From: Mustelus asterias
Taxonomy: Eukaryota
NCBI RefSeq assembly: GCF_964213995.1
Contig: NW_027590116.1
Coordinates: forward strand, 186,001-250,000
Direction of reading: 5' to 3'
Length of the DNA stretch: 64,000 bases
Shown here: positions 2,452 through 55,184 of the stretch, one piece after another
Position numbering within the stretch: the first letter of the stretch is position 1
Layout of the letters: each line of letters starts with the position of its first letter
The notes under the pieces: generated by a model
What the model saw: only the letters and a program-made list of their open reading frames with translations
Told to the model about the DNA's origin: nothing
Database searches by the model: none
Position numbers and translations under genes: made by a program

Positions 2452-2632
2452 ATGGAGCAGAATCTGAGAACACTTGAGCGGACTGGTACAACAGTGAACA
2501 GGAGTTTCTCCTTTCTGCTTCACTATCTTTCTGAAAGATATGACCGTTTGTCATTAGCCAATCGGATCAGTGTTATACTTGATATGATTGCGACGCTGTA
2601 CTATCCAATCCTCGCTGCTTTTGGTCTAACTG
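2452..2632 (+). pseudogene. GPR139-like GPCR gene 1, coding exon 1 (N-terminus and start of TM1)
   Basis: ATG at 2452 (MEQNLRT...ATLYYPILAAFGLT) ends at a phase-1 donor ACT G|GTAAGT (GT 2633-2634). The YYPILAAxG motif resembles TM1 of GPR139 (YYSLLLCLGLPAN). Confidence 0.85.
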
Positions 2633-3790
2633 GTAAGTCTGTCCATCAGAAATTCATTTTGTCAGCTGCATGACACTCTCTTACTGATCCTGTTAAACGT
2701 TTGGAATCTGAACCGATTCTGTTCAGTTCCCTTTGCAACTTCTAATTCTGGCAGGGAACCAAACTATTTTCAGCCACCGTGAATTGTTTGAACTTGAGAT
2801 TTCCAAATCCTTATCTTATCCGTGTCCCATGCTGCCTCTTAACAACTCTGTGCAAAGCCCATCAGCATTCTGTAAAAGCCAATCAGCTGCACAAACCCTC
2901 ATTTGTACCATTGCGAGCTGAAAAACTGGCCATGTTAATGTTCTCCTCTTCACTTTAACAACATCCAATGTTCATATCTCACAGTCGTTATAAAACGTGG
3001 CTACTTGCATTCTCAAGCACAACAAATCTCGTTCACATCCCATTGTTATGCCCACGGATTGGCATCAGCTCCCGATCCGGCATCAACCCGATCTTTGATG
3101 GCCCCACATTTCCCTTTGGATGCTCAGTGTGCTCGACCGTAAACAATAATCCAGCTTGAAATCCAATTTGTGTCTTCTCACTCGGTGTTCCATCCAAAAT
3201 CAGCACAGAATATTGCATTGCATTATTAGTGTCTCACTGTCCCGGCCTCAAACTTTAATCTGATTTTCATATATCAAGGTAACTCTATCCCTGTGCTCCA
3301 GATTAATTTTACCACTTATGTTGTCTGCCAATGTTGCTCCCTTAAAAGTGCATCACCCGCACTTCCCCACACTGTCCTTCATCTGCATTGTTCATTTACT
3401 ATCCAACCAATTTGTCGATGTCCTTTTGAATTTCAAAACCGTCCTTCTCACAACTTGCAATCCCTCCTAGTTTTGTCATTTGCAAACTTTTGAACTGTTC
3501 CCACACAGCAATATTTAGATTATTTATATCATGGAGTAAGGTCAAATGTTGTCTCCTCGGTGAACTCCTATGCAAACTTTCCTGCGGCCCGAGAAATGTC
3601 CAGCAAGCATTGCTCTATTTTGCCGATCACTCGGCTAATTATGCAACCACGTTGCTACTGTTCTTTTTATTCTATGTACTAAAACTTTTCTCACCCGTCT
3701 ACTGTATCACATTGTACCGAATGCTTTCCAAATGCCCAAGTGCACCACAGCAACAACATTGACCGTATGGACCATTTCTGTTGCCTCTTA

Positions 3791-4126
3791 CATAGAAACT
3801 CTACAGTACAGAAAGAGGCCATTCGGCCCATCGAGTCTGCACCGAACTCAAACCCACCCAGGCCCTACCCCCACATCCCTACATATTTACCCACTAATTC
3901 CTCTAACCTACGCATCCCAGGACACTAAGGGCAATTTTTAGCATGGCCAATCAACCTAACCCGCACATCTTTGAACTGTTGGAGGAAATCGGAGCACCCG
4001 GAGGAAACCCACGCACACACGAGGAGAATGTGCAAACTCCACACAGACAGTGATCCATGACGAGAATCGAACCCAGGTCCCTGGAGCTGTGAAGCAGCGG
4101 TGTTAACCACTGTGCTACCGTGCCGC
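3791..4126 (-). mobile_element. Full-length HE1/V-SINE-like SINE
   Basis: A/B-box head, core TGTGGAGTTTGCACATTCTCC, CR1-type tail. Confidence 0.88.
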
Positions 4127-4859
4127 TATGTGACGGCTCTCTGCAGAGAACTCCAGCAACTTAGTTAACACGGTTTCGACTTTAAATATTCATGCTGCTC
4201 TTGTTAATCAACATTCAATTCGTCATTTAACTAGGAATTGCACCAGGAATAATTGTTTCTGGAAGTTTTTGCACCACTGAAGTTAAACTCACTGGTCTGT
4301 ATTTCCTGGTCTCATCGATAAACCTGCTTTGCACAAGCGCATAAGATCAGTAATTCCGCAGTCCTCTGGCACCGCCCTGAGTCCTGGGAAAAGTTTAGTG
4401 TTATGTTCAGCAGCTCTGAAATTTCCACGTTCACATTTTTCTTCCGTGTACTACTGGAGTCAGGAACCTACATATGTTCTAATCTGGTAGCTCCACAATT
4501 CATTGCATTTTCATAATTTAACCCTCCCTTAGGTAAGTAACAGTAATTGTTTTCTACCCTATTTGTTTGCAAATATTTGACGTCAGGTATTCTCCGAATG
4601 AATTAAACAGGATAGTGTTTCTTCTTCTGTATCATTCCCCATCAAAAAAGATTTGTCACTTGAGGTTCATTAGTGCGTTGTTGTGGAAGCAAAGATCCAA
4701 TAAATCGAGTGAAACGCACGGCGAGCAGATTCCATGCTGGATTTCACACGAGGCTGCTTGAACTGTGTCATTGTTTGGACTGGTCTTAACGCGATCACAA
4801 ACAGCCATTCCATGTGATTTGAGTCACTTTTTCGAAAGTTGGTCTGTTCAGTTGTAACC

Positions 4860-6870
4860 ACTGTTCTCAAATCCATGGCCCGGAAGACCGCAGGTCCAAC
4901 ATTCCCACTAAGCCTGGATCATCTCGGGTTAAGGAGAGCGCAGAAGGGCAGACAGGAGGTGCAGCAGACCGAGAGCTGCAGCAGATATGTTGCAAGATAA
5001 GGAGATATCAGTTCGGTGAGGCTGCAACACGAGATGAATTGACTGGCAAACAGCACATGTAGTGAGCGATAGACAGAGCCAAACAATACCACAACCAATA
5101 GCGCAGATCTAAATGTTGCAGTCCTGGAGATCCAGTCCTGAATGGCGCTGGTCAAATCAATAACTTCGTGGAGGATGAGTCACCACCAGTATCAGCACAT
5201 CAGTGCAAGATGAAAGGCTGCAGTGTGTTTAGGAAACTTCAACCAAAAGTGTGGTAAAACGTATCCGACTTCTCTTGAGGTCCCCAGTTTCACATATAAT
5301 TTTCTTCAACCAATTAGATTCACTCCTTCTAAGGAGGAGAAACGGCTGTCGCCACTGTAAACTCCGAAGACAGTGACAGGCAGTAACCTGCAGCACGATG
5401 GCTCAGTGGTTAGCTTTGCTGCCTCACAGCACCAGGGACATTGGGCCGATTCCGGCCTCGGGTCTCTGTCTGTGTGGAGTTTGCAGGCTCTCATTGCATC
5501 TGCATGGGTTTCCTCCAGATGCTCCGGTTTCCTCACACAGTCCGAAAAACCTGATGGTTCGGTATTTTTGGCCATGCTAAATTCTCCCTCAGTGTACCCA
5601 AGAGGTGCCCGAGTGTGGCGACGAGGTGGATTTTCACAGTATCTTCAATGCACTGTTCATGCAAGCCGACTTGTGACATTAATAAGTGTAAACTAAACTC
5701 GCATTCCATCAACATTCCATGATGCAGAACATATCACGGCCCGAGCAAATATGGCAGCCGGCATTTAGCTGGAAATCTGCCAACATACCCAGCTGCTAAT
5801 GGTGAGAAAGGGAAGGACATATCAACCCCAGTCAATTAACACCCCTTCAGTCTAGTCCGGATTATGATAAATGTAGCAGCAGGTGCCAAGATTATTGCTA
5901 CACAGCGGCAGTTATTCAGCATTTCCCTGCTCACAGTCTTATAGTTTGTGTTCTGCAAGGCTAAATGAGCTGTTGAAGTCATTGCCTCCAAAATATGAAC
6001 TAAGCAGGTGAACTCAGGGGTATTACCGTGAATGTGGTTGACCTGATTTGGGATGAATGAACACCAGCAAAAGCAGATCTGAATTCAATGGAATTCAGGA
6101 AGAATGTTGCAGATCCGACATAACGCAATGTCTGATGGTTGGAAATGTTGGACCTCAGTCTTGTCAGTCCAGGTACATTATTGCAGAAGGGCCTCAGAAT
6201 TACCAACCTAACCCCAGCCAAGTGTAGCTGCTTCATCATTGACCATCCTCTCATCATGAAATCAGAATTGGGGATGTTGCCTGAAGATTTCACCATATTT
6301 AGTATCATTTCTGCCTCCATGGACACTGATGAATTCCATTTATGAATGCAGAAAAACCTGAACAATATCCAGGGTGAGGCTGAAAATTTGAAAATGTAAT
6401 TCACACCACAGAACTGCTCGCTAGATGCCTCCTTCAAAAACAGCGAATTCAACCATCACACCCTCGATATTCATTAGAATTTCCATCACTGAATCTCTAT
6501 CTAGATCCGGTGGGGTGGTGGGGCGGGGGGGGGGGGGATGGTTAAAATCGACCAGAAACTGAGATGGATTAGCCACATTATTACTGTGGAGAAACGAGCC
6601 AATCAGAGGTCACGTGTCCTGCCGATGATAATTCACCTGGTCAATCTCCAAAACCTGTCCAGCATCTCCAAGGAACAATTCCGGACAATACGGTGTTAAC
6701 CATCCGTTTGATGGATGTATGCATCTTCACCAACACTCAGGAAGCTTGGCACCATCAGGAAAGATTCAATCCAGTTGAGTGATAGGCAACACATTCAACA
6801 CTGACTCTCTCCACCATGTCATACATTGTCAGCAGGATGCGCTGCTTTCCATTTAGAAAACACAGTGAAC
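4860..6870 (+). mobile_element. Ancient CR1/L2-clade LINE relic in gene 1 intron, interrupted by a SINE
   Basis: Degenerate RT block AGCTGCTTCATCATTGACC...GGGGATGTTGCCTGAAGAT. The same family is seen at ~24300-24740 and ~63260-63430. Confidence 0.55.
5390..5698 (+). mobile_element. HE1/V-SINE-like SINE, alternative-tail subfamily
   Basis: Head and core plus GTGTGGCGAC...GGATTTTCACAGT...ACTTGTGACATTAATAA tail. Confidence 0.8.
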
Positions 6871-6899
6871 ATCAACGACTCGTACTGTCCAATTCTCAC

Positions 6900-7530
6900 A
6901 CCCTCACTAACTCATCAAACAACTTCTAGTCATACTCTGTCACTCAGCTGCCACAAACACACTCATTCCCTCGCCCCCGCCCCCAGTCACAATCACAGAC
7001 CCAATACAGTATAAACTTACAATGTCCAACCCCTCCCACCAAATACATACACCCGCGCACACACTCACTCTCTCTCTCACCCACACGCAATCACTCACTC
7101 TCTGACTCAGACAGATGCACACGAACAATCCAGACACTCACGCTCTCCCAATTACAACCACACTCAAACTTTCTCTGCAACTCACTCATTTCCCAATTCC
7201 AACAAAAGAACAAACCGAATTTCTCATTCCCACACACACAGATACACGAGCCGCCTCGCTCACACTCAGACAGAGACACACAAACAATGGCAAAACACAG
7301 TCTATTTCCCTCTCACACTCACACAAACACGCATACACTCCCAATTCCACATGCAAGCGAACTTTCACAAACACACTTAAACATTCTCTTGTCTGCTTCC
7401 CACGCGCACAGACACAAACATTTTATCTCTTGCACACCTTTCTCTCACACACACAATGATGCTCACTTTCACATTCCCACAATCGCTCTCCCACATTCGC
7501 CTCATGCTCTGCCCCGTCTCTCTGATACAA
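6900..7530. repeat. CA/CT-rich degenerate microsatellite region
   Basis: Low-complexity sequence next to the assembly gap. Confidence 0.8.
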
Positions 7531-7817
7531 NNNNNNNNNNNNNNNNNNNNNNNNNNNNNNNNNNNNNNNNNNNNNNNNNNNNNNNNNNNNNNNNNNNNNN
7601 NNNNNNNNNNNNNNNNNNNNNNNNNNNNNNNNNNNNNNNNNNNNNNNNNNNNNNNNNNNNNNNNNNNNNNNNNNNNNNNNNNNNNNNNNNNNNNNNNNNN
7701 NNNNNNNNNNNNNNNNNNNNNNNNNNNNNNNNNNNNNNNNNNNNNNNNNNNNNNNNNNNNNNNNNNNNNNNNNNNNNNNNNNNNNNNNNNNNNNNNNNNN
7801 NNNNNNNNNNNNNNNNN
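7531..7817. other. Assembly gap (287 N) in gene 1 intron
   Basis: N run. Confidence 1.
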
Positions 7818-7954
7818 CTTTTGTTCAGGCCGAATATTAGCAAACAACAGTGAATGGAGGAATAACGCTGAACATCTCAATAAAGTTTTAATCAAAGTGT
7901 TTACTTTGTTCAATGCCCGTTGTCTGTCTCACTGTTTATTTCACTCTCTTGCAG

Positions 7955-8226
7955 CTAACCTACTTACTGGGTTGATACTAACCCGTGGAAGATGTGGTCT
8001 TTCCACATGGGTCACTTGCTACCTGGTGGCCATGGCAACAGCAGATCTATTTGTCATTATCTTCGACGTGATTTTGAAACAGATTCCACGTGTTTATCTT
8101 TTAAATTTCTTTAATTTGCTGCGCTCTCTCCAAGTGTGCAATATCCACACTGCATTTCTTCAAACAGCCACGGACTGTTCTGTCTGGTTCACCGTGACTT
8201 TCACCTTTGATAGATTTCTGGCCATA
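7955..8226 (+). pseudogene. GPR139-like GPCR gene 1, exon 2 5' part (TM1-TM3)
   Basis: Polypyrimidine tract and TTGCAG acceptor (AG 7953-7954). Reads (A)NLLTGLILTRGRCGLSTWVTCYLVAMATADL...DCSVWFTVTFTFDRFLAI, then is cut by the CR1 3' tail. Confidence 0.9.
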
Positions 8227-8325
8227 TAAGAACATAAGAACATAAGAAATAGGAGCAGGAGTAGGCCATCTAGCCCCTCGAGTCTGCCCCGCCATTATAT
8301 AAGATCATGGCTGATCTGACGTGGA

Positions 8326-11300
8326 TCAGTACCACTTACCCGCCTGATCCCCATAACCCTTAATTCCCTTACCGATCAGGAATCCATCCATCCGCGCTTT
8401 AAACATATTCAGCGAGGTAGCCTCCACCACCTCAGTGGGCAGAGAATTCCAGAGATTCACCACCCTCTGGGAGAAGAAGTTCCTCCTCAACTCTGTCTTA
8501 AACTGACCCCCCTTCATTTTGAGGCTGTGTCCTCTAGTTTTAACTTCCTTACTAAGTGGAAAGAATCTCTCCGCCTCCACCCTATCCTGCCCCCGCATTA
8601 TCTTATAAGTCTCCATAAGATCCCCCCTCATCCTTCTAAACTCCAACGAGTACAAACCCAATCTCCTCAGCCTCTCCTCATAATCCAAACCCCTCATCTC
8701 CGGTATCAACCTGGTGAACCTTCTCTGCACTCCCTCCAATGCCAATATATCCTTCCTCATATAAGGGGACCAATACTGCACACAGTATTCCAGCTGCGGC
8801 CTCACCAATGCCCTGTACAGGTGCATCAAGACATCCCTGCTTTTATATTCTATCCCCCTCGCAATATAGGCCAACATCCCATTTGCCTTCTTGATCACCT
8901 GTTGTACCTGCAGACTGGGCTTTTGCGTCTCATGCACAAGGACCCCCAGGTCCCTTTGCACGGTAGCATGTTTTAATTTGTTTCCATTGAGATAGTAATC
9001 CCATTTGTTATTATTTCCTCCAAAGTGTATAACCTCGCATTTCTCAACGTTATACTCCATTTGCCATATCCTCGCCCACTCACTCAGCCTGTCCAAATCT
9101 CTCTGCAGATCTTCTCCGTCCTCCACACGATTCACTTTTCCACTTATCTTTGTGTCGTCTGCAAACTTCGTTAACCTACACTCCGTCCCCTCCTCCAGAT
9201 CATCTATATAAATGGTAAACAGTTGCGGCCCGAGTACCGATCCCTGCGGCACGCCACTAGTTACCTTCCTCCAACCGGAAAAACACCCATTTATTCCGAC
9301 TCTTTCCTTCCTGTCGGATAGCCAGTCCCCAATCCACTTTAACACACTACCCCCAACTCCGTGTGCCCTAATCTTCTTCAGCAGCCTTTTATGGGGCACC
9401 TTATCAAACGCCTTTTGGAAATCCAAAAACACCGCATCCACCGGTTCTCCTCCATCAACCGCCCTAGTCACATCTTCATAAAAATCCAACATGTTCGTCA
9501 AGCACGACTTTCCCCTCATGAATCCATGCTGCGTCTGATTGATCGAACCATTTCTATCCAGATGCCCTGCTATCTCCTCTTTAATAATGGATTCCAGCAT
9601 TTTCCCTCCTACAGACGTTAAGCTGACCGGCCTATAGTTACCCGCCTTTTGTCTCCTTCCTTTTTTAAACAGCGGCGTAACATTAGCCGTTTTCCAATCA
9701 ACCGGCAGTACCCCAGAATGCAACGAGTTTTGATAAATAATCACTAACGCATCCACTATTACCTCTGACATTTCTTTCAATACCCTGGGATGCATTCCAT
9801 TTGGACCCGGGGACTTGTCCACCTTCAGTCCCATTAGTCTACCCAGCACTGCTCTCTGGTAACATTAATTGTATTAAGTATTTCTCCTGCTGCCAACCCT
9901 CTATCGTTAATATTTGGCAAACTATTTGTGTCCTCCACCGTGAAGACCGACACAAAAAACTTATTTAAAGACTCAGCCATATCCTCATTTCCCACTATTA
10001 ACTCCCCCCTCTCGTCCTCCAAGGGTCCAACATTCACTCTAGCCACTCTGTTCCTTTTTATATATTTAGAAAAACTTTTACTATCATTTTTTTATATTAA
10101 TTGCTAGCCTAGCTTCATAGTCTATCCTTCCTTTCTTTATCGCTTTCTTAGTATCTCTTTGTTGTTTCTTAAATTTTTCCCAATCACTTGTTTCTCCACT
10201 ATTTTTGGCCACTCTGTACGCAGCTGTTTTTATTTTAATACTCTCCTTTATTTCCTTCGTTATCCACGGCTGGTTCTCCCTTTTCTTACAATCCTTGTTT
10301 TTTGCTGGAATATATTTTTGCTGAGAACTGAAAAGGATCTCCTTAAAAATCCTCCACTGTTCCTCAGCTATCCTACCTGCCAGCCTGCTCTCCCAGTCTA
10401 CCTTAGCCAATTCATCCCTCATCCTATCATAATTCCCTCTGTTCAAACAGAGGACACTGGTTTGAGACCAAACTTTCTCCTCTTCCATCTGAATCAGAAA
10501 TTCGACCATATTGTGGTCACTAGACCCAAGAGGGTCCTTCACAATAAGATCCTTAATTCTACCTACCTCGTTACACAATACCAGATCCAAAATAGCTCGT
10601 TCCCTCGTTGGTTCCGTAACATGCTGTTCAAGGAAACTATCCCGACAGCATTCTAAGAACTCTTCCTCCATTCCACCCTTACCGACTTGAGTCTGCCAGT
10701 CAATGTGCATGTTGAAGTCCCCCATGATTATTGCCGTTCCGTTTTTACACGCATCCCTTATCTGCTTGTTTACAGCCCTCCCTACCTCAACATTATTATT
10801 TGGGGGCCTATATACCACACCTACTAGTGTCTTTCTCCCTCTACTATTCCTCATCTCTACCCATAATGATTCCACGTTTTGTTCCTCAGAGCCTATGTCA
10901 TCCCTCAGTACTACCCTGATATTATCTCTTATTAATAGCGCGACCCCACCACCTTTTCCTTCCTGTCTATTCTTCCTAAACGCCTGATACCCCTGGATAT
11001 TCATCTCCCAGTCCTGGTCACCTTTCAGCCACGTTTCTGTAATGGCTACTAGATCGTACCCACTTGTGCTGATTTGCACCATCAACTCATTCACCTTGTT
11101 CCGAATGCTTCGTGCATTCAGGCAAAGTGTCCTTATTCCAGCTTTTATCTGGACCCGCTTTGATGAGTCGCGAACACCCTCTCCCTCTACTCCCTTATCT
11201 AAATTACCGCCTTCATTCACTTGCAACCTCTCCTCTACCATTAATTTTGTAATTCCCCTTACCCCTGCATCCTCCACCCCATCAATTAGTTCCTTGATCC

Positions 11301-11331
11301 TAGTCAACTCTTCTAGCTCCCCTCCCCCCAA
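8326..11331 (-). CDS. CR1 ORF2 (endonuclease + reverse transcriptase) with two 1-nt indels
   Basis: EN motifs NARS, TETW, YRPP, GDFN and SDH; RT motifs [27 protein letters not shown] and FADD. Frame breaks at the A-run near 10090 and at ~9850. Confidence 0.9.
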
Positions 11332-11336
11332 CCTAT

Positions 11337-12275
11337 CTAGTTCAAATTCTCCCCAGTAGCCTTAGCCAACCTACCGGCCAGGATATTGGTCCCCGTGTGA
11401 TTCAAGTTACACCCGTTTTTTGTATACAGATCACCCCTGCCCCTAAAGAGGTCCCAATGGTCCAGGAACCTGAATCCCTGCCCCCTGCACCAGTCCCTCA
11501 GCCACACATTCATCCTCCACCTCACTCCATTCCTGCCCTCACCTTCCCGTGGCACAGGCAGTAATCCTGAGATTACTACCTTTGCTTTCCTCTTTCTCAG
11601 CTGTCTCCCTAATTCCCTGTACTCCCTTTTCATGACCCCTTCTCCCTTCCTACCCACATCAGCGGTACCAATATGTACCGCTACCTCAGGCTCCTCTCCC
11701 TCCCACCTCAGGATTTCCGGGACGCGACTAGCGACATCCTGGATCCCGGCCCCAGGGAGGCAGACCATCATGCGAAAATTCCGCCTACCTCCGCAGAAAC
11801 GCCTGTCTGTCCCCTTCACCATCGAGTCCCCGATTAATACCGCCTTCCTCCTCTTTTCCTTAGCCCTCTGAGTTACAGGGGTGGACTCCACTGCGGAGAC
11901 AAGGCCACTGCTGCTTCCCCCAGGCGGGCTGTCCCCCCCAGCAGTACTCAAGCAGGAGTACTTGTTGTGCAGGGGCAAATCCACCGGGGTGCTCTCAACC
12001 ACCCTAGCCTTACCCTTCCTGGCCGTCACCCACTTGGCCTCCTCCCGTGGCCCTGGTGTGACCACCTGATGATAGGTCTTGTCTATCACCTCCTCATTCT
12101 CCCTCATCAGCCTAAGATCCTCGAGCTGTAGTTCCAGCTCCCTAACACGGTCCCTCAGGAACCGCAGCTCGACACATCCCTCACAGATGTGGATGTCCGG
12201 GAGGCAAGATGCCTCCAGGACCTCCCACATCCTACACTGGGAACAACACACTGGTTTCACACTCATACTGGACAC
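11337..12275 (-). CDS. CR1 ORF1 protein (zinc-finger/leucine zipper + SGNH esterase-like domain), 312 aa
   Basis: CCSQC...CEGC zinc finger, coiled coil LRDRVRELELQLEDL, esterase blocks IGDS and VHIGT, VVISGLLP. The ORF is open. Confidence 0.88.
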   Translation of the reverse strand: MSSMSVKPVCCSQCRMWEVLEASCLPDIHICEGCVELRFLRDRVRELELQLEDLRLMRENEEVIDKTYHQVVTPGPREEAKWVTARKGKARVVESTPVDLPLHNKYSCLSTAGGDSPPGGSSSGLVSAVESTPVTQRAKEKRRKAVLIGDSMVKGTDRRFCGGRRNFRMMVCLPGAGIQDVASRVPEILRWEGEEPEVAVHIGTADVGRKGEGVMKREYRELGRQLRKRKAKVVISGLLPVPREGEGRNGVRWRMNVWLRDWCRGQGFRFLDHWDLFRGRGDLYTKNGCNLNHTGTNILAGRLAKATGENLN

Positions 12276-12601
12276 TTAATCTCAAGTAAGACAGTGAAAA
12301 GTTAATAAGAGTGTAAGGAAACAAAACTCACCCCTGCTCGTCCAAGCCCTGTGAGCCAAAGCCCTGACAGCTCACTCAACTTCCCACTCACTCTGCTGCC
12401 CGCTACGATGCTGCCCGCTGTATACTTTGGTGCACTTTTAAACCCTCCAAAAACTTCCCCTGGCCTCTCCTGGCCTGACTTCCGGTTTTGAAAAAAACCT
12501 CCGATTTTAAACCCAAAATTAACTGAAAAAATAAATAATTAATTACAGTCAGAAAACCCACTTTCTTCCCCTCAGCCTGCTCCTGGGAACAACTCCTTAA
12601 A

Positions 12602-13234
12602 ATATGTTGCAGAAATCTGAAAAGGTAACACTGCACCGTGAAATCCGCAGTGGTGACTCTGGGAACAGTCACTGGGTTGAGCTGTTTAAAAAACGTGTTC
12701 TGGTGTTTTACGTTCACAGCTTCATATGCGTTTACAAAAGGACTATGGCTTTGTAGACGTATAAGTGGCTTTATAACCTCCCCTATTTGGGGATCAATCG
12801 AATTGCTGCAATATATTTTAACACCTTCTATTCCACTTGTCCTGATTATAATGCTCAATACCTTCACCGTCAGAAACATTTTAGTGACCAGCAGAGCCCG
12901 CAGGAGACTCCATGCTCAGAGCATTGAGAAGACTCATTTTGATCCAGAAATGGAGAATCGGAGGAAATCCATTATTTTACTGTTTGCTATATCAGCGAAT
13001 TTTATTCTGTTATGGGCATTGTTGGTGTTTTATTCCATACAGACATGCATGACGTTTCTCCAGATTACGGATATTGCTGTGGACTATTTTATCATAAAAT
13101 TGGGCACCATGTTTCAACTTCTAAGTTGCTGCACAAACACTTGCATCTATGCAATAACACAGACAAAGTTCAGGCAGCAGGTGAGAACTATGCTAAAATA
13201 TCCCTTCAGTAGAATTGTGAAATCTATCCAATGA
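12602..13234 (+). pseudogene. GPR139-like GPCR gene 1, exon 2 3' part (ICL2-TM7)
   Basis: Resumes ICCRNLKR*HCTVKSAVV (in-frame TAA 12626-12628), then DPEMENRRKSIILLFAIS and FQLLSCCTNTCIY, ending at TGA 13234. The reconstructed protein is about 360 aa. Confidence 0.9.
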
Positions 13235-13483
13235 TTCGAATAGATGAATAATTGAAATTTCCCATAAAGTCAATATCTAATTTTACTTGGAAATGGACCA
13301 ATTATTTTAAATTGTAGACAGCGTGTGGTTGGTTTATGTCGCTGTCCATGTGCAGCAAATATCCCTGCACTAATAGAACATGTGGTGCATCTTAATCTAT
13401 GATAGGAACGGTTGGGGGATGGTTGGGAGGGGAATGACAGAGTGGGGGGGGGGGGTGGGTGGCGTTGGGTGCAGAGCCTGTCA

Positions 13484-15178
13484 TTGCATCGGTATTCACG
13501 AAGGAGAGGGGCGTGTTAACCGGGAGTGTCTCGGAGGGAGGTGTTGACCCGTTAGAGAAAATCTCCATTACGAGAGAGGAAGTGTTAGGTTTTTTAGGGA
13601 ACATTAAAACTGACAAAGCCCCAGGGCCTGATGGCATCTATCCTCGACTGCTCAGGGAGACGAGAGAGGAAATTGCTGGGCCTCTGACGGAAATCTTTGT
13701 CGCTTCTTTGGACACGGGTGAGGTCCCTGAGGATTGGAGGATAGCGAATGTGGTCCCGTTGTTTAAGAAGGGTAGCAGGGATAACCCAGGAAATTATAGG
13801 CCGGTGAGCTTGACGTCCGTGGTAGGGAAGTTGTTGGAGAGGATTCTTAGAGACAGGATGTATGTGCATTTAGAACGGAACAATCTCATTAGTGACAGAC
13901 AGCATGGTTTTGTAAGAGGGAGGTCGTGCCTTACAAATTTGGTGGAGTTTTTTGAGGAAGTGGCAAAAACGGTTGATGAAGGAAGGGCCGTGGATGTCGT
14001 CTATATGGATTTCAGTAAGGCATTTGACAAAGTCCCACATGGCAGGTTGGTTAAGAAGGGTAAGGCTCATGGGATACAAGGAGAAGTGGCTCGATGGGTG
14101 GAGAACTGGCTTGGCCATAGGAGACAGAGGGTAGTGGTCGAAGGGTCTTTTTCCGGCTGGAGGTCTGTGACCAGTGGTGTTCCGCAGGGCTCTGTACTGG
14201 GACCTCTGCTATTTGTGATATATATAAATGATTTGGAGGAAGGTGTAACTGGTGTAATCAGCAAGTTTGCGGATGACACAAAGATGGCTGGAATTGCGGA
14301 TAGCGAAGAGCATTGTCGGGCAATACAGCAGGATATAGATAGGCTGGAAAATTGGGCGGAGAGGTGGCAGATGGAATTTAATCCGGATAAATGCGAAGTG
14401 ATGCATTTTGGAAGAAATAATGTAGGGAGGAGTTATGCAATAAATGGCAGAGTCATCAGGAGTATAGAAACACAGAGGGACCTAGGTGTGCAAGTCCACA
14501 AATCCTTGAAGGTGGCAACACAGGTGGAGAAGGTGGTGAAGAAGGCATATGGTATGCTTGCCTTTATAGGACGGGGTATAGAGTATAAAAGCTGGAGTCT
14601 GATGATGCAGCTGTATAGAATGCTGGTTAGGCCGCATTTGGAGTACTGCGTCCAGTTCTGGTCGCCGCACTACCAGAAGGACGTGGAGGCATTGGAGAGA
14701 GTGCAGAGAAGGTTTACCAGGATGTTGCCTGGTATGGAGGGTCTTAACTATGAGGAGAGATTGGGTAGACTGGGGTTGTTCTCCTTGGAAAGACGGAGAA
14801 TGAGGGGAGATCTAATAGAGGTATACAAGATTATGAAGGGTATAGATAGGGTGAACAGTGGGAAGCTTTTTCCCAGGTCGGAGGTGACGATCACGAGGGG
14901 TCACGGGCTCAAGCTGAGAGGGGCGAAGTATAACTCAGACATCAGAGGGACGTTTTTTACACAGAGGGTGGTTGGGGCCTGGAATGCGCTGCCAAGTAGT
15001 GTGGTGGAGGCAGGCACGCTGACATCGTTTAAGACTTACCTGGATCGTCACATGAGCAGCCTGGGAATGGAGGGATGCAAACGATTGGTCTAGTTGGACC
15101 AAGGAGCGGCACAGGCTTGGAGGGCCGAAGGGCCTGTTTCCTGTGCTGTACTGTTCTTTCTTGTTCTTTGTTCTTTGT
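13484..15178 (+). mobile_element. 5'-truncated young CR1 LINE (second subfamily) with an uninterrupted RT frame
   Basis: Open RT frame to 15093 (FADD), 3'UTR GGGCCGAAGGGCCTG stem, (TTCTTTG)n tail. Confidence 0.93.
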
Positions 15179-25744: not shown

Positions 25745-28575
25745 TTGGAACAATATGTAGACAGCCCGACTAGAGAGGGGGCTATACTGGACCTGGTACT
25801 GGGGAACGAGCCCGGTCAGGTCTTCAAAGTTTTGGTAGGGGAACATGTGGCAAATAGTGACCACAATTCTGTTAGCTTTAGGATAGTGATGGAAAAGGAT
25901 GAGTGGTGTCCCAAGGGTAAGGTGTTGGAAATGGGGGAAGGCTAACTTTATTGGGATCAGGCAGAAATTGGCAGCTCTTGATTGGGAGAGGCTGTTTGAG
26001 GGTCAATCCACATCTGGTATGTGGCAGTCTTTTAAGGAACGGTTGTTAGGGCTACTGGACAAGCATGTGCCTGTAAAAAAGAAGGATAGGAAGGGTAGGA
26101 TTAGAGAACCGTGGATAACCAGGGAAATTGAGGGACTGGTCAAAAAGAAAAGAGAGACGTATGTTAGGTCCAAGCAGCTAAAAACGGAGGGAGCTCTGGA
26201 GGAGTACAAAGAAAGTAGGAAAGTACTCAAACGGGGAATTAGAAGAGCAAAAAGGGGTCACGAAATGTTCTTGGCAGACAGGATTAAGGAGAATCCGAAG
26301 GCATTTTATTCATACGTTAGGAACAAAAGGGTTGTCAGGGAAAAAATCGGACCTCTCAGGGACAAAAGTGGGGACTTATGCTTGGAGCCCAAAGAAGTAG
26401 GGGAGATCCTAAATGAATACTTTGCATCGGTATTCACAAAGGAGAGGGATGTGTTGACTGGGAGTGTCTCTGAGGGGAGTGTTGAACCGTTGGAGAAAAT
26501 CTCCATTACAAAGGAGGAAGTGTTAGGTTTGTTAGAGAATATAAAGACTGACAAATCCCCAGGGCCTGATGGAATCTATCCAAGGCTGCTCAGGGAGACG
26601 AGAGGTGAAATCGTTGGGCCTCTGACGCAAATCTTTGTCTCGTCACTGGACGCAGGTGAGGTCCCAGAGGATTGGAGGATAGCCAATGTGTTCCCGTTAT
26701 TTAAGAAGGGTAGGAAGGATAACCCCGGTAATTATAGGCCGGTGAGCTTGACGTCCGTGGTGGGGAAGTTGTTGGAGAAGATTCTTAGAGATAGGATGTA
26801 TGCGCATTTAGAAAGGAATAAACTCATTAACGATAGTCAGAATGGTTTTGTGAGAGGGAGGTCATGCCTCACTAACCTGGTGGTGTTTTTTGAAGAAGTG
26901 ACCAAAATGGTTGACGAAGGAAGGGCCGTGGATGTTGTCTATATGGACTTTAGTAAAGCTTTTGACAAAGTCCCTCATGGTAGGCTAGTGAAAAAGGTTG
27001 GATCTCATGGGATAAAGGGGGAGGTGGCTAGATGGGTGGAGAACTGGCTTGGTCATAGAAGAGAGAGGGTGGTAGTGGAAGGGTCTTTTTTCCTGCTGGA
27101 GGCCTGTGACTAGTGGTGTACCGCAGGGCTCTGTATTGGGACCTCTGCTGTTTGTGATTTATATAAATGATCTGGAAGAAGGAGTAACTGGGGTGATCAG
27201 GAAGTTTGCGGACGACACAAAACTGGCAGGACTTGCAGATAGTGAGGAACATTGTCAGAGGCTACAGAAGGATATAGATAGGCTGGAAATGTGGGCAAGG
27301 AAATGGCAGATGGAGTTCAATCCTGATAAATGCGAAGTGATGCATTTTGGTGGGAATAATGTTGGGAGGAGCAACACGATAAATGGAAGAACCATAAAGG
27401 GTGTAGAGACGCAGAGGGACCTGGGTGTGCAAGTCCACAGATCTTTGAAGGTGACGTCACAGGTGGAGAAGGTGGTGAAGAAGGCATATGGCATGCTTGC
27501 CTTTATAGGACGGGGCATAGAGTATAAAAGTTGGGGTCTGATGTTGCAGATGTATAGAACGTTGGTTCGGCCGCATTTGGAATACTGCGTCCAGTTCTGG
27601 TCGCCACACTACCAGAAGGACGTGGAGGCTTTGGAGAGAGTGCAGAGGAGGTTTACCAGGATGTTGCCTGGTATGGAGGGGCTTGGTTATGAGGAGAGAT
27701 TGGGGAAACTGGGGTTGTTCTCCTTGGAAAGACGGAGGATGAGGGGAGACTGAATAGAGGTGTATAAAATTCTGAAAGTCATAGATAGGGTGAACGGTGG
27801 GAAGCTTTTCCCCGGGTCGGTGGTGACGTTCACGAGGGGTCATAGGTTCAAGGTGAAGGGAGGGGGGAGGTTTAACACAGATATCAGAAGGACATATTTT
27901 ACACAGAGGGTCGTGGGGGCCTGGAATGTGTTGCCGGGCAAGGTGGTGGAGGCGGACACACTGGGAACGTTTAAGACTTATCGAGACAGCTATATGAACG
28001 GAGTGGGAATGGAGGGATACAAAAGAGTGGTTTCGTTTGGACCAGGGAGCGGCGCGGGCTAATTGTTCTTTGTTTCTCGTTTCAAGGCTTCATTCTATGA
28101 TCAACTTGCTGATGCCAGTACAGAGCGAGACTGCGGATAGTTGGGAACCTGTCTCGGGGGCCGGGAATTCATATGCTGTTCGTGGAAGTGGAAAAGAATA
28201 GGGTTGGGAAGCATTTTCCGATCAGGGCCAGTGTGATCTCCTGGACTCGTTTCGATCGCCTCAGGGGGTCGGAGAGGAATTTCCCAGATTTTTTTTCCCC
28301 ATATTGGCCCTGGGGTTTTCACTCTGGGGTTTCGCCTCTCCCTGGAGATCACATGGTCTGGAATGGGGGGGGTGGGGGTGAGTTAATAGGTTGTGATGAA
28401 CAAAGCATCGTAGCTGTGAGGGACAGCTCGGTGGATAGGATATTAGTATGCAGATAGGCTGGAAAATTGGGCGGGGATCCTGGATTCAGGATTCAATCCT
28501 GGACCGGGGAGCGGCGTGGGCTTGGAGGGCCGAAGGGCCTGTTCCTGTGCTGTATTGTTCTTTGTTCTTTGTTTT
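25745..28575 (+). mobile_element. 5'-truncated CR1 LINE (end of EN + RT) with extended 3'UTR
   Basis: ORF pieces 25670-25945, 25899-27113, 27106-27753 and 27760-28062. (TTCTTTG)n tail at ~28557-28573. Confidence 0.92.
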
Positions 28576-28775
28576 GGTTAACTCAAGTTGCACCAGGGAG
28601 AGCCAAAGGGCTCACTTGGACAGTCAGTGACACATTGTCCCGATGGAGCACAGAGTTCCTTGCGCTGAAGACAACCACACGAAAAGGTCATCTGTGAGAT
28701 CTTAGAGCCCTGCCTCTACATTCAATCTGAGATGTTAGAGACTGCAAATACTGTCCCTTATTTGTAACAAAGCTG

Positions 28776-29007
28776 TGATGTGGAGATGCCGGCGTTGGAC
28801 TCAAGTGGGCCTAGTAAGAATTCTCACAACAGCAGGTTAAAGTCCAACAGGTTTATTTGGAATTGGAAGCTTTGCGAGCATTGCTCCTTCATCAGAAGCG
28901 CTGCTCCTTCATCAGGTGAGTCACCTGATGAAGGAGCGGCGCTCCGAAAGCTCGTGATTCCAAATAAACCTATTAGATTTTAACCTGCTTCTGTGAGACT
29001 TTTTGCT
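28776..29007. mobile_element. Palindromic Penelope-like (PLE) terminal-repeat element
   Basis: Inverted repeat 28813-29007 centred on G28920 (CATCAGGTGA-G-TCACCTGATG), carrying hammerhead core motifs typical of PLE pseudo-LTRs. Confidence 0.75.
28918..28960 (+). ncRNA. Minimal type I hammerhead ribozyme motif
   Basis: Stem I GAGUCAC/GUGAUUC, core CUGAUGA(A), stem II GGAGC-GGC-GCUCC, GAAA, palindromic AGCU in place of stem III, cleavage triplet CUC. Confidence 0.72.
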
Positions 29008-29874
29008 CTAAAAAAGATAACATCAGTGTTTGTGAATACAAAACACGTGTATTCTGATAAAGACCCATTTACCTTAATAATGTGCTTTGGGGAAGGATAT
29101 CTGCTGTGTTTACCCAGTCTCATCTACATCTGATTCTGGTCATGCTGCAACGGGGTTAAATTTTAAACGCACCTGGACTATCATTCGGTTTGGTTTGTCA
29201 CGATAATAGCAGGGAGAGAGCAGACGTCAGAACAAGTCAAGGCCTCACTGGCATTTTCTACCTGCAATACACTCGCACGCTGAATCTGACTCGTGAACAA
29301 TGTGTCAGTGTGATTCGTCACCATCCCCGGTATGTCCAGTCCCACTGGCATTGCAGAACCAGCACAGCTGACAGCTGTCTGGCACACATTCTGGATGGAT
29401 TGTGTGTGGGAAATCCTCAACAGTGACTCCGGAAACTATGATTTATCATGACATTCGTGCAAAGGCAGGGAAGTACATCTTCTGCTGACACCCCCTCACA
29501 CCCTCTGTCAGCGGAAAAATCCCTGTTACTCAACGCTAAATAATAGTTGAGGGAATCATTAGCTTCAGATTTCCACCTCTCTCTTTGGTCCATGTCATTT
29601 TCTCAACCACCATGGGAATCACATCATCTTTTGCATGGAAGTTCAAACGTGTATCAGTGTCCTCTGAACAGAAAGGTCTAATCTACTCGGAACTAAGTGC
29701 CAGATTATAATACATTTTTCCAATTCGATATGAGTAACAGATTTCTTAGGCTCAGTCGAATTTACGTCTCCATATTGTGAACTTAAAATCTGAGGCAATT
29801 GTCTGCAACATTTTATACCTGGCACCAATCTCTCACTGAAAAAAATCTGTGCCTTGATTTGATATTCATCAGTT

Positions 29875-30689: not shown

Positions 30690-33600
30690 TGCTACAGGGA
30701 GGGAGCCATTTTCCCTCGAGGGAAAACGCTCCAAATCTTCTTTGCACAAGGTTCAGGAAAGTTTGAACGTGGCATATTCGGTTATAACTCTGCTAACCAG
30801 GTACTGGTTAGTCGGCACTGTTTTGGGAGTTTCAGTGTATTAGCTTTCCAGAGGTCTCGATTGGTGCTCCCAGATGTGATTTAAAATCCATCGTGGTTGG
30901 TGTATTTAAAATCCAATGAATACAACCCTCAACTGAAAGTTATTCTCAGTAATGCGGACCATGAACATATCTTTGGAGTCCAAAAAAACAACCGAGTTTA
31001 TTAATGCATTTAATGGATTGACTCCTGTCCACTTTGCAAAGCAGGCTTTCATGCGATTCCGGACACTGGTTAACCTGGTTGACTCTCAAAGTCTCTCTGC
31101 AATGGCCAAGCCAGTCTTTCAGATGGCTTTGGGGGTTGTGTGTTAAAGTGGATTGGGGACTGGCTATCCGACAGGAAGCAAAGAGTCGGAATAAATGGGT
31201 GTTTTTCCGGTTGGAGGAAGGTAACTAGTGGCGTGCCGCAGGGATCGGTACTCGGGCCGCAACTGTTTACCATTTATATAGATGATCTGGAGGAGGGGAC
31301 GGAGTGTAGGGTAACGAAGTTTGCAGACGACACAAAGATAAGTGGAAAAGTGAATCGTGTGGAGGACGGAGAAGATCTGCAGAGAGATTTGGACAGGCTG
31401 AGTGAGTGGGCGAGGATATGGCAAATGGAGTATAACGTTGATAAATGCGAGGTTATACACTTTGGAGGAAATAATAACAAATGGGATTACTATCTCAATG
31501 GAAACAAATTAAAACATGCTACCGTGCAAAGGGACCTGGGGGTCCTTGTGCATGAGACGCAAAAGCCCAGTCTGCAGGTACAACAGGTGATCAAGAAGGC
31601 AAATGGGATGTTGGCCTATATTGCGAGGGGGATAGAATCTAAAAGCAGGGATGTCTTGATGCACCTGTACAGGGCATTGGTGAGGCCGCAGCTGGAATAC
31701 TGTGTGCAGTATTGGTCCCCTTATATGAGGAAGGATATATTGGCATTGGAGGGAGTGCAGAGAAGGTTCAACAGGTTGATACCGGAGTTGAGGGGTTTGG
31801 ATTATGAGGAGAGGCTGAGGAGATTGGGTTTGTACTCGTTGGAGTTTAGAAGGATGAGGGGGGATCTTATGGAGACTTATAAGATAATGCGGGGGCTGGA
31901 TAGGGTGGAGGCGGAGAGATTCTTTCCACTTAGTAAGGAAGTTAAAACTAGAGGACACAGCCTCAAAATAAAGGGGGGTCGGTTTAAGACAGAGTTGAGG
32001 AGGAACTTCTTCTCCCAGAGGGTGGTGAATCTCTGGAATTCTCTGCCCACTGAGGTGGTGGAGGCTACCTCGCTGAATATGTTGAAAGCGCGGATGGATG
32101 GATTCCTGAGCGGTAAGGGAATTAAGGGTTATGGGGATCAGGCGGGTAAGTGGTACTGATCCACGTCAGATCAGCCATGATCTTATTGAATGGCGGGGCA
32201 GGCTCGAGGGGCTAGATGGCCTACTCCTGCTCCTATTTCTTATGTTCTTATAGATCAGGGCCATTGTTAGGCACCAAAGGCTCCTTCAGCCACGCACACG
32301 TCCGATGAAATAGTGAAAACGAAGTTGAAAGACGGTGAAAATAATTCACAGGTAAACCAGCGGAGGAGATTTCCCTTTAACACAGCGAGATATTGCGACC
32401 TGGACTTTCTGACTGCAAGGATACGGGAAGATATCCAATAGTATATTTCTCAATGAGAATTCAACCAACAAATCACAGTGGCTGCAGTCACTTTTACACA
32501 GCAACCAGCTCGCTGTTGCATGGGGCATGGACCAAACCGGATGGGGAAAGACTTGCTCAAGCATATTCGGCTAAACTGGAAGTCTTCCGGTTAGGCGTGG
32601 AATATACTGTTTTCAGAAGATACCTTGGAGTTAATTTCAGGAACATCGAGGTAATTTTAAAAGGGGCCAAGGCCAAGATCAACGTGAACCCGAATGCTAA
32701 ATATAGCTATTTCAGAGCCAAACCTGGAGAAGGTGGAAACGGAACTACGAAATCATGAAAGGTTGGTACAATCAGTCCTGTGCAATTTGCAGAATGGATT
32801 GTGCCCATTGTCTCTGTTCTTCGGCTTGAAAACACAATCTGTGTGTGTGGTGACAATAAACCTACAGTCAACTGGGTCTCTAAATATTATAAATACCCCA
32901 TGACCTGGACCAAAATGTGTAAACAAGATAACAGGTGGCAATATGTTCTCCTCATTTGACATGAGCCATGCCCAACTTCACTTGAATCGGACGAGTCCTC
33001 CTGGAATACATGTGACATTCAACAACTATAATGGAGTATTTGAGCATACCTATTTGCACTTCGGGGTCACATCAGCATGGGCCATGGGTATCATCAGTGT
33101 ATGTCGCCTTGCAAAGAGTTATATCGAACATCCTTCAAGGGCTACCCAAGTTAACAGTATTTTTTGCTGACGTCTTGGCTACGGGCATTTTAGAACAGGA
33201 ACAGCTGGCCAAAAAGGAAGATGTCTTGCAGAGATTTTCCAGAGCAACAGTTTGCTTGCAGAGAGAGAGAGATCCATTTTCCAAGCAGGTGAAGTAACCT
33301 AATTAGATGATGAGGGATTACTTGTGCTGTGCATAAAGAAAAGGTCATCAAGGAAGCGCGAACCCCAAGGAACGCATAGAGTTAAAATCCTTCTGGAGCT
33401 AATTAGTTATAACAGAACATTTATTCCGAATGTAGCTTCCATGCTGCCACGTTTCTAGTCTAATATGAAAAAGCCTCAGATTTTCCTGGGGAGCTACGCA
33501 GAAAGAGAATATTTCTAAAGAAAACCGTCAGTTACTGTCACCAACTTAGTGGCCCGTTTTGACCCTGAAAAATACCTTATTTTAACTGATGATTCTTCGT

Positions 33601-35763: not shown

Positions 35764-35833
35764 ATGCGTTGGACAGCAATTTCCCAGACAACAGCTGTGT
35801 ACTATCCGATACTCGCAGCAGCTGGAGGACCTG
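35764..35833 (+). pseudogene. GPR139-like GPCR gene 2, coding exon 1
   Basis: MRWTAISQTTAVYYPILAAAGGP followed by phase-1 donor G|GTAAGT. Too short to appear in the ORF track. Confidence 0.85.
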
Positions 35834-36691
35834 GTAAGTTACTTTGATATCTTGAACCTTTGAACTTACTACTGTTTTATTTTCTGTACTGGCTAAATGT
35901 ATTATACCTGCCTTCAACTCTGTGCGAAAAGTGGCGTTCTTGAATTGAATGCCAGCGTATCCATCTGATCTAGAATGCCTTATCCCTTTAGATTACTTCT
36001 TATTGCGACATTTGCCCTTCTGCTGTTCACTCCCACACTTTGTTATAATTTTGATGTATGTTCCTTCCTTGCAATTTAATAATAGGGGTTTCTTCTGATT
36101 TTTCTATTTTTCGATCTTCTGCAACAACATTTTCTTATCTATTGCCAATTACTTATCTCTGCCCACCTTGATTTTAGTGATCTTTATTCTTTATGATGCA
36201 GTGTAGTGTTTTCGTTCTGCTCTTTGTACTTCAGTTTCTTATTGTCTTTCCTGGGCCATTTATCCTGGTTGTTGCCTTCCTCCTGCTGCTTATATTATTG
36301 TTATTTTGTTCTCTGGTGTGTTGTTCATCATTGGTACTGTGTGCTTCCTCAATCCGTTCATCCTGGACATTATCTCCTCTGCTGCACGGATTCATGCTCA
36401 ATTTTACATTACCAATGTACATAGATAAATATCCGCACGTAATGGATCACACACAGCTTCTCATCTATCAGATGAGAGACCACAATGTATCCCGACACCA
36501 TGCACTGGATATTCAGAAAATAAATGAAGGTCACCGGGGATGGGGATTTTAGTTTAGGCAACATCAAATGATTCCAGCAGATGCTCTACTTGTGGTTTTG
36601 AACAGTTCTTGAAATTCAGCATTATTATTGAAATTCTTTCAGCATTTTCGTCTCTTGGTTATATTACTGTTTTCTATTCTATGTCTCACAG

Positions 36692-37608
36692 TGAATATCG
36701 TGACAATCGCAATCCTGTCTTTCAAAAATTGTGGCCTGTCCAAATGCATCACCCGTTATCTGGTGGCTATGGCGACAGCGGATCTCCTGGTCATTGTCTG
36801 TAATGTAATCTTGCACCGCATTGCTACATTGTATTGGCGTGACACGTTCCTGTTCTACACTCCCATGTGCAGACTCATTCTCTACATGTCCCCGGTTGCC
36901 ATTGACATTTCTGTTTGGTTGGACTGTCAGTTTCACCTTTGATCGCCTTGTGGCCATTTGCTGTCAGACGCTGAAGATAAAGTACTGCACCGAGAAAACT
37001 GCTGCTGTGGTTATCAGCATTGTGAGCTCGCTGTTCTGTTTAAAGAACATTCCCTGGCCCTTCCTGAATTTCTGTTATTTCAACAAGCTGCAGAGGGGTT
37101 GCTTATTAGGAGCCAATTTTTATATTTTACCAATGTGGATAGCATTTTCCTGGGTTGAGCAGCTGTTAAGCCCAGTGATTCCTTTCATTTTAATTTTATT
37201 ATTTAACATTGTCACCATCAAACATATTTTAATAGCCAATCGCGGCAGAATGACTCTCCGGCAGCACAGCAATGACGGGAATGAGAAGGATCCCAAGCTG
37301 AGCAACCGCAGAAAATCCATTGTGTTACTATTTGCAATATCCAGTAGTTTCATCCTGCTTTGGATGGCAACAGTTGCATATTTCTTCTATATTAGAATTG
37401 GAGCCATCTTTAATCACAGATCCACAGTTTTACCAGCTTCTCGATATTCCAGGAGGCGGGAATCATGCTGCAGCTTCTGAGCTCCTGCACCACTACAGCC
37501 ATTTACACAATAACCCAGAGACAGTTCAGACATCTACTGTTCAATGTGATAAAAGCTCCCTTTACTCTGCTTGGGAAATTAATGAAATTTGGAGGGAAAC
37601 ATCAGTGA
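36692..37608 (+). pseudogene. GPR139-like GPCR gene 2, exon 2 with two frameshifts
   Basis: CACAG acceptor, then (V)NIVTIAILSFKNCGLSKCITRYLVAMATADL. A +1 indel lies at ~36921 (SVWL/TVSFTFDRL) and a -1 indel at ~37443, after which the frame reads QEAGIMLQLLSSCTTTAIY...GGKHQ to TGA 37606-37608. About 328 aa when corrected. Confidence 0.88.
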
Positions 37609-54971: not shown

Positions 54972-55038
54972 ATGCATCGTCCAATGCAATGGGTCAAGAA
55001 AGTATTCTATATGGTCATTGCTGTCGTTGGTGTTCCTG
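54972..55038 (+). pseudogene. GPR139-like GPCR gene 3, coding exon 1
   Basis: MHRPMQWVKKVFYMVIAVVGVP followed by phase-1 donor G|GTAAAT, at the same TM1 position as genes 1 and 2. Confidence 0.82.
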
Positions 55039-55184
55039 GTAAATCACAAATGCTTTAAAATTATGTGAATCTATGTGTGAGTCTGTGCCTCCTTTTAATC
55101 TGTTCAATGTGCCATATGCTGTTTAATGTGTTATACGCTGATCTGATGCTGACCATTGTGCAGATATCCGTGCTACCAAATGTG

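What the first reader, a model, noticed from the sequence alone, without database searches (positions are those of the whole stretch)
28918..28960. Minimal hammerhead ribozyme with an intact core between the GPCR genes
Seen in sequence (+ strand): stem I GAGUCAC (28918-24) pairs with GUGAUUC (28954-60, one G-U). The core CUGAUGA (28925-31) is followed by one extra A, stem II GGAGC/GCUCC with a 3-nt loop, GAAA (28946-49) and then GCUC. Stem III is reduced to the self-complementary AGCU, which cannot fold back on itself. Established: Penelope-like retroelements carry such minimal type I hammerheads, thought to cleave as dimers, and an extra residue between A9 and G10.1 occurs in natural hammerheads. 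Inference: this copy could self-cleave after C28953 if paired with a second copy, cutting readthrough transcripts in the cluster.
Basis: partly seen in the sequence, partly recalled or inferred. Interest (0 to 1): 0.7.

Follow-up and report, generated by a model that had tools for sequence, protein, structure and literature searches.

The report
Masked hammerhead in Penelope fold-back stub
This is a real tiny hammerhead-ribozyme motif of a known kind, carried by a short mirror-image stub of a very abundant Penelope-like jumping gene; it is predicted to be folded shut by its own mirror arm and is unlikely to cut the neighbouring receptor genes' RNA, while its sister stubs suggest the motif likely sits at the capped start of the jumping gene's own messenger RNA.

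Summary
The motif is present exactly as described and is not chance (0 of 150 shuffles). It is the pseudo-LTR hammerhead of a Neptune-type Penelope-like element (PLE): one 35-base flank has 154,065 exact matches in this genome, longer copies encode RT plus GIY-YIG, and subfamilies covary. The window copy is the right arm of a 232-base fold-back insertion (28776-29007). Its antisense arm masks the core in any read-through RNA (predicted 27-33 kcal/mol penalty), no same-strand partner lies in 124 kb, three of the seven stem I pairs are a junction accident, and 2 of 9 duplicates of the locus break the pair next to the core. A role in cutting GPCR read-through RNA is not supported. Family-level: about half of this subfamily's copies start 3-11 bases before the core, about 32 bases after a TATA-like box, often with an extra G; the element's far end stops at its ATG. 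Such stubs are likely cDNAs of the capped, uncut 125-base 5' leader. The scan reported this family many times in this genome, and the cap-G pattern in other genomes. Ordinary locus; modest family-level interest.

The parts
28776..29007 (.). Whole fold-back insertion of a Penelope-like element: two back-to-back copies of the element's end piece (pseudo-LTR), tail on the left arm only
   Evidence: Inverted repeats, boundaries from alignment with dispersed copies, minus arm spelled out
28921..28960 (+). Minimal type I hammerhead: stem I 5' 28921-24, core CUGAUGA 28925-31, extra A 28932, stem II 28933-45, GAAA 28946-49, palindromic AGCU 28949-52, C17 28953, stem I 3' 28954-57
   Evidence: Sequence; 1 difference from subfamily majority, in loop II
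28918..28920 (+).
   Evidence: outer pairs formed in 2, 18, 18 of 52 rows
28921..28922 (.). Fold-back junction: 2-base overlap of the arms; on the minus strand base 28922 reads as a G just before ACTCAC, the likely cap-derived G
   Evidence: Sequence; same junction in 5 of 50 listed fold-backs (by eye); G excess
28961..29007 (+). 3' flank of the pseudo-LTR on the right arm, no tail; 8 differences in 47 bases from the subfamily majority
28813..28922 (-). Left arm: second hammerhead, broken (20-base internal duplication 28877-95/28897-915, G12 lost at 28874, stem I 3' strand changed)
   Evidence: no descriptor hit on the minus strand
28776..28812 (-). PLE 'tail': last 36 bases of the element's 5' leader plus the A of its ATG
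   Evidence: in 3 of 30 loci the same tail runs on into a shared ORF start (MATIDTANCRL...)
28763..28775 (+). Possible decayed target-site duplication, left copy (9 of 13 bases match 29007-29019)
   Evidence: sister insertions show ~11-14 base duplications; weak, AT-rich
29007..29019 (+). Possible decayed target-site duplication, right copy
2584..13234 (+). Upstream class A GPCR gene (exon 1 2584-2632; exon 2 split by a LINE insertion at about 8240-12580); ends 15.7 kb before the motif
35764..37580 (+). Downstream class A GPCR gene (exon 1 35764-35833, exon 2 from 36690, two frameshifts); starts 6.8 kb after the motif, so the motif is intergenic

Best explanation
The motif is the pseudo-LTR hammerhead of an abundant Neptune-type Penelope-like retroelement, left here as one arm of a short fold-back insertion that is likely inert, because its own antisense arm is predicted to mask the core in any read-through RNA. 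Shown: membership of the repeat family, the RT plus GIY-YIG ORF upstream of the same motif in longer copies, the inverted pair with a one-sided tail, covariation among subfamilies, and decay of the motif in copies and in duplicates of this locus. Inferred mechanism of origin: the element's mRNA starts, capped, about 6 bases before the core and about 32 bases after a TATA-like box; the element's RT began at two sites just before the ATG (tail end and tail-less end), copied the uncut 125-base leader twice to the cap, and the two cDNA ends were joined by a 2-base overlap. The insertion predates the duplication of this GPCR cluster segment. Inferred function: the ribozyme was selected in the source elements, where a cut would remove the cap and first 35 bases of the element's own mRNA, probably only with help from the element's protein or a second copy.
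For: Family size: 7,457 exact matches of a 35-base ribozyme pattern and 154,065 of a 35-base 3' flank, controls 0. Longer copies: endonuclease C-terminus, 3' UTR, then the same motif; ORFs of 537 and 520 aa with RVT_1 (E 4e-11, 4e-7), GIY-YIG (E 0.0014, below the Pfam cut-off) and a CX4CXXC linker. Architecture: 144 of 209 sampled copies are in back-to-back pairs, tail on exactly one arm in 63 of 72 pairs, as described for PLEs (PMC8557442, passages). Covariation in 132 of 209 copies with exact core boxes: first stem I pair C-G 82 / U-A 39; N7 C/A/U; H17 U 71, A 38, C 20, G 3; 15.2-16.2 GC in 127; covariation score 0.178 vs 0.140 shuffled (0 of 500) and 0.03-0.09 slid. Masking: 27-33 kcal/mol. 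No same-strand partner in 124 kb. Decay: G12A variant 1,763 vs tolerated C11.1U 2,389 vs intact 7,457; 3 variable sites of 43 in the motif vs 60 of 1,568 outside in 9 duplicates, two of them breaking the pair 28924-28954. Start pile-up: 30 of 62 copies end at -3..-11 from C3 versus 3 at -12..-29 (35 by script, 5 moved by eye); 14 of 27 in an independent sample, 0 of 27 at the cut. Extra G before ACTCAC in 67 of 84 stubs, 39 of 56 after dropping 28 where the partner arm could supply it (by eye, p 1e-9); 9 G, 1 T, 0 A in stored loci. Tail ends at the ATG.
Against: The right-arm ribozyme has 1 difference in 40 bases against 8 in 47 in its own 3' flank; this is what selection for the motif would give, but the copy was noticed because it is intact, and 120 of 178 sampled copies that reach stem I also keep an intact core. 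Core positions differ less from subfamily majorities (1.7%) than unbiased flanks (3.0-4.9%), which I read as selection in source elements but cannot separate from selection on copies. G12A is 26% rarer than C11.1U. Only 2 of 5 whole-structure measures beat shuffles in ways that relatedness could also give; the pair-count measures did not (408 and 444 of 500). Most copies with ACTCAC still have C before it (13,352) and 40 of 50 stored stubs do, so the start may be spread over a few bases or be a reverse-transcription stop. Folding energies omit tertiary core contacts and proteins. The cap-G and junction tallies are by eye from the first 100 listed matches on one contig.
Confidence: 0.85

Rival explanations
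1. One reading: this copy self-cleaves as a dimer and cuts read-through transcripts between the GPCR genes.
For: Core intact, stems form in isolation; same strand as the GPCR genes; fewer changes in the motif than in its 3' flank; a two-molecule double hammerhead is only 1.7 kcal/mol above two monomers.
Against: Masked by the antisense arm, which is transcribed first; no same-strand partner in 124 kb; the best two-molecule fold is a non-ribozyme duplex 15.5 kcal/mol lower; broken in 2 of 9 duplicates; all three GPCR genes in the window carry a stop, frameshifts or an insertion.
Confidence: 0.03
2. The stubs are a separate non-autonomous, SINE- or retrozyme-like family that is transcribed and copied as a unit, and this is one member.
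For: 987 short fold-backs centred just before the core; the same junction in 5 of 50; animal retrozymes derive from pLTRs (10.64898/2026.07.22.740005).
Against: Junctions differ in 45 of 50; arm lengths run continuously from tens of bases to 3 kb; stubs lack the TATA-like box; no tandem array here; fold-backs carry their own target duplications and subfamily marks of long copies.
Confidence: 0.07
3. The pile-up of starts before the core marks a reverse-transcription stop at the ribozyme's stem I or a joining hot spot, not a capped start; the locus is still an inert relic.
For: Starts spread over -3..-11; many stubs have C, not G, before ACTCAC; quasi-palindrome at the junction favours microhomology joins.
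Against: G excess persists where the partner arm cannot supply it (39 of 56); spacing to the TATA-like box is 32 bases; stops would be expected at the 3' side of a stem, not past its 5' side (inference).
Confidence: 0.15
4. The fold-back matters as a 100-bp RNA hairpin (editing, small-RNA or termination signal) rather than as a ribozyme.
For: Predicted -113 kcal/mol hairpin on either strand; kept in 10 duplicates.
Against: Arms only 80% complementary and still diverging; thousands of like fold-backs genome-wide.
Confidence: 0.04

Closest known systems
Minimal hammerheads (min-HHR) of metazoan Penelope-like elements (Cervera and De la Pena 2014, PMC4209133; results, discussion and part of methods read)
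   Same: Type I, core boxes intact, extra base between 9 and 10.1, G10.1-C11.1, palindromic 15.2-16.2, no helix III loop, short helix I, place in the pLTR, mostly solo or in opposite-strand pairs, many subfamilies.
   Different: Helix II is 5-6 bp rather than 7-8 as in Schistosoma; copy number far higher than the 4,000-9,000 quoted for coelacanth and Xenopus; the text read does not list sharks (its supplements were not read and may).
EN+ Penelope-like elements, Neptune clade (Craig et al. 2021, PMC8557442; passages)
   Same: RT then CX2-5CXXC linker then GIY-YIG with two cysteines between the boxes; 5'-truncated copies, inverted copy at the 5' end, 30-40 base tail on one end.
   Different: Neptune versus Nematis not resolved by a tree; this insertion keeps only the leader.
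Poseidon element of Anolis, PAc (Frangieh et al. 2024, PMC11167929; main text read)
   Same: Two RT start sites bounding the tail near the ORF start; uncut RNA is the insertion template; ribozyme near the ORF start.
   Different: In PAc the cut lies 26 bases inside the ORF and the tail inside the ORF; here the cut is about 90 bases before the ATG and the tail ends at the ATG. Activity here untested.
Full-length L1 insertions with a cap-derived G (PMC11702581; passages)
   Same: Extra G at the 5' junction read as reverse transcription of the cap.
   Different: Different element class; here the copies are only 125-base leaders and usually paired as fold-backs.
Non-LTR retrozymes of animals (10.64898/2026.07.22.740005; parts 1 and 3 of 5 and passages)
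   Same: Hammerhead-bearing pLTR-derived repeats; reported in one chondrichthyan.
   Different: Retrozymes are direct tandem repeats that supply the dimer; this copy is inverted and solitary.

Membership tests
Minimal type I hammerhead of PLEs | Core CUGANGA, GAAA, UH with helices I and II | tested here: met
   helix I is 4 bp in the element's own sequence
Minimal type I hammerhead of PLEs | Extra base after A9, G10.1-C11.1, palindromic 15.2-16.2 without loop III | tested here: met
   family: extra A 132 of 132, G-C/G-U 128 of 132, GC 127 of 132
Minimal type I hammerhead of PLEs | Covariation across subfamilies | tested here: met
   C-G/U-A at the first stem I pair, H17 not G in 129 of 132, with the caveat that one change is inherited by many rows
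Minimal type I hammerhead of PLEs | Location in the pLTR of an RT/GIY-YIG element | tested here: met
Minimal type I hammerhead of PLEs | Self-cleavage as a dimer or with protein help | not testable with these tools
   Needs in vitro assay; masked in native context by prediction
Rfam hammerhead families | Score against a curated covariance model | tested here: not met
   No hammerhead match at E<=5 in the window
EN+ PLE, Neptune clade | RT followed by C-terminal GIY-YIG endonuclease | tested here: met
   Sister copies L061, L062; GIY-YIG hit below Pfam's cut-off; the window copy itself has no ORF
EN+ PLE, Neptune clade | CX2-5CXXC linker before the endonuclease | tested here: met
   CX4CXXC at residue 399 of the L061 ORF; shared with Nematis
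EN+ PLE, Neptune clade | RT phylogeny with Neptune rather than Nematis | not tested
   No reference sequences in hand; Neptune inferred from the linker and vertebrate host
EN+ PLE insertion structure | Inverted 5'-truncated copy and one-sided tail | tested here: met
   Window; 63 of 72 pairs
Non-LTR retrozyme | Direct tandem repeats each with a hammerhead | tested here: not met
   No same-strand copy in 124 kb
Domesticated host hammerheads (intronic or UTR, recalled: RECK, Clec2) | Locus-specific conservation and a monomer-competent helix III | tested here: not met
   No helix III; not conserved among 9 duplicates; other species not tested

The most novel reading that the evidence does not exclude
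Penelope hammerheads are cap-proximal off-switches: the element's mRNA starts six bases before the core, so a (protein-assisted) cut removes the cap and first 35 bases upstream of the ATG, and the thousands of G-capped fold-back stubs in this genome are fossil cDNAs of leaders that escaped the cut, made by two RT starts on one RNA.
Probability: 0.45. Interest if true: 0.55.

Novelty: new member of a known kind. Interest (0 to 1): 0.24.

Why it matters
The locus itself is one of more than 150,000 relics and tells little about GPCR regulation. The family does bear on an open question, what PLE hammerheads are for (called unclear in PMC8557442; not needed for insertion in vitro in PMC11167929): if the motif is the first thing after the cap and the inserted copies come from uncut RNA, a role in trimming precursors for insertion becomes unlikely and a role in limiting the element's own translation becomes directly testable.

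Tried and rejected
Rfam scan: no hammerhead hit. Sequencing runs: no RNA holder listed; laying two guessed-RNA and two other runs gave only contigs, dominated by repeat copies, and says nothing on expression or ends. The duplicate comparison mis-oriented minus-strand loci because the palindrome matches both ways; redone, which is the one cited. The target-site regex found nothing; redone. Column counts came from a motif-biased selection and are not used for core-versus-flank rates (one search is). Cut-site footprint, a lead from earlier notes: not seen for this subfamily (0 of 27 starts at the cut; 0 of 50 fold-backs centred on the cut, by eye); 6 of 50 have one arm starting at the cut, but through the CAC/GTG overlap with an arm starting before the core, so joining alone can explain them; subfamilies C and D show a few starts at the cut (4 of 50, 2 of 45), not followed up. 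Literature searches for hammerhead+Penelope+shark, Penelope/Neptune in sharks (55), PLE promoter (56), cap G (62), twin priming (63) and capped start (72) listed no paper that, in what I read, reports a cap-G or start at the hammerhead for PLEs; subscription papers and supplements were not seen. D. virilis Penelope has a TATA-less internal promoter (PMC2377424, passages), so the TATA reading does not generalise by default. No protein homolog search or tree was run.

Full report
Observation. Folded alone, 28918-28960 forms both stems; it is the only descriptor hit in the window, 1 of 150 resampled windows gave any hit and none an equally good one. Rfam has no match. The left arm holds a second, broken hammerhead on the minus strand and a 37-base tail.

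What it belongs to. The genome is 3.68 Gb; a cartilaginous fish is my recalled reading of the repeats and genes and comes from no call of mine other than earlier notes. A 35-base ribozyme pattern has 7,457 exact matches and a 35-base 3' flank 154,065, reversed controls 0. In longer copies the motif follows an endonuclease C-terminus and 3' UTR; ORFs of 537 and 520 aa hit RVT_1 and weakly GIY-YIG and carry a CX4CXXC linker, the Neptune/Nematis mark (PMC8557442, passages). Of 209 copies picked by endonuclease or 3' flank, not by the ribozyme, 144 lie in back-to-back pairs and 63 of 72 pairs have the tail on one arm only, the published PLE insertion structure.

Is it a real hammerhead family? Among the 132 of 209 copies with exact core boxes, the pair next to the core is C-G in 82 and U-A in 39, position 7 is free, position 17 avoids G (3 of 132), the extra A is invariant and 15.2-16.2 is GC in 127. 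On 52 aligned rows of equal length (52 of 91 candidates; longer stem II variants left out) covariation exceeds all 500 shuffles and all slid controls, though pair-count measures do not. These are the features listed for min-HHRs (PMC4209133). The family's stem I is 3-4 bp; the window's outer three pairs come from the opposite arm. So the ribozyme was selected in source elements.

Does this copy work? Likely not. The antisense arm is transcribed first and pairs with the core: predicted probability of the hammerhead fold 0.19 alone, 5e-9 from 28905, 3e-24 in the whole element. No same-strand hammerhead lies in the window plus 30 kb each side. Nine near-identical duplicates of the locus on other contigs show 3 variable sites in 43 bases against 60 in 1,568 outside, and two break the pair 28924-28954. 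Genome-wide the G12A variant (1,763) is nearly as common as the tolerated C11.1U (2,389). The motif is intergenic, 15.7 kb after one GPCR gene and 6.8 kb before the next; all three GPCR genes here have a stop, frameshifts or a LINE insertion. Published minimal motifs cut weakly as dimers or only with the element's protein (PMC11167929). Against this reading: the right-arm motif differs from its subfamily at 1 of 40 bases and its flank at 8 of 47, and cores differ less than flanks across copies (1.7% vs 3.0-4.9%); ascertainment and selection in source elements explain this but were not separated.

How it arose. In this subfamily 14 of 27 copies start at -11..-4 from C3 and none at the cut (153 of 209 copies used, endonuclease-picked loci left out); in a second sample 30 of 62 start at -3..-11 and 3 at -12..-29 (35 by script, 5 reassigned by eye). 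987 fold-backs are centred here and 5 of the 50 listed have the window's exact junction. I then asked for a cap signature: where the base before ACTCAC is not the templated C, it is G in 67 of 84 stubs (16 long copies of the 100 listed set aside), and in 39 of 56 after removing 28 where the partner arm could supply it (by eye). An extra G marks capped full-length L1 insertions (PMC11702581). The TATA-like box is 32 bases upstream, and the tail ends at the element's ATG (3 of 30 loci continue into a shared ORF start). The window's minus arm reads G-ACTCAC through to the A of that ATG: a copy of the whole 125-base leader with the cut site intact. This fits internal RT starts at both ends of the tail and an uncut template. 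Limits: C before ACTCAC remains the majority (13,352), no RNA evidence was available, and tallies are from one contig. After this test I found that the scan had reported the same cap-G pattern in other genomes.

Comparison and verdict. Works like and is a member of the PLE min-HHR class on every sequence feature tested; activity untested. Not a retrozyme (no tandem), not a domesticated host ribozyme (no helix III, no local conservation). The locus is an ordinary relic; the family-level point, a ribozyme directly behind the cap, is modestly interesting and already noted by the scan. Interest 0.24.

Noticed in passing
window 2584-13234, 35764-37580, 54972-58242: Three two-exon class A GPCR genes on the + strand, each broken (LINE insertion and stop; two frameshifts; in-frame TGA at 57805). 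The segment around the motif has 9 duplicates at 98-99% identity on small contigs, so the cluster is recently amplified or partly uncollapsed.
   Followed up: partly
window 55195-55241: Solo 47-base piece of the same PLE 3' flank, without ribozyme, in the intron of the third GPCR gene.
   Followed up: partly
window 28877-28915 and L009: The 20-base duplication in the left arm is absent from the most diverged duplicate (L009); the extra unit has the loop sequence that L009 keeps on the right arm, so it was probably copied across the fold-back.
   Followed up: partly
L013, L058, L076, L106, L107, L110, L135, L236 and others: Complete fold-back insertions often carry target duplications of about 11-14 bases; not tabulated further.
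   Followed up: partly
L231, L234, L236: Copies that join the ORF start directly to the 3' pseudo-LTR after about 25-35 codons, i.e. internally deleted short elements.
   Followed up: no
L101, L114, L130: A few copies of subfamilies C and D begin exactly at the predicted cut, unlike the window's subfamily.
   Followed up: no
window 25890-28570, 8326-12275, 13438-15093, 31083-32159: Several LINE copies with RVT_1 domains (CR1-like by recall), one ending about 200 bases left of the fold-back.
   Followed up: no
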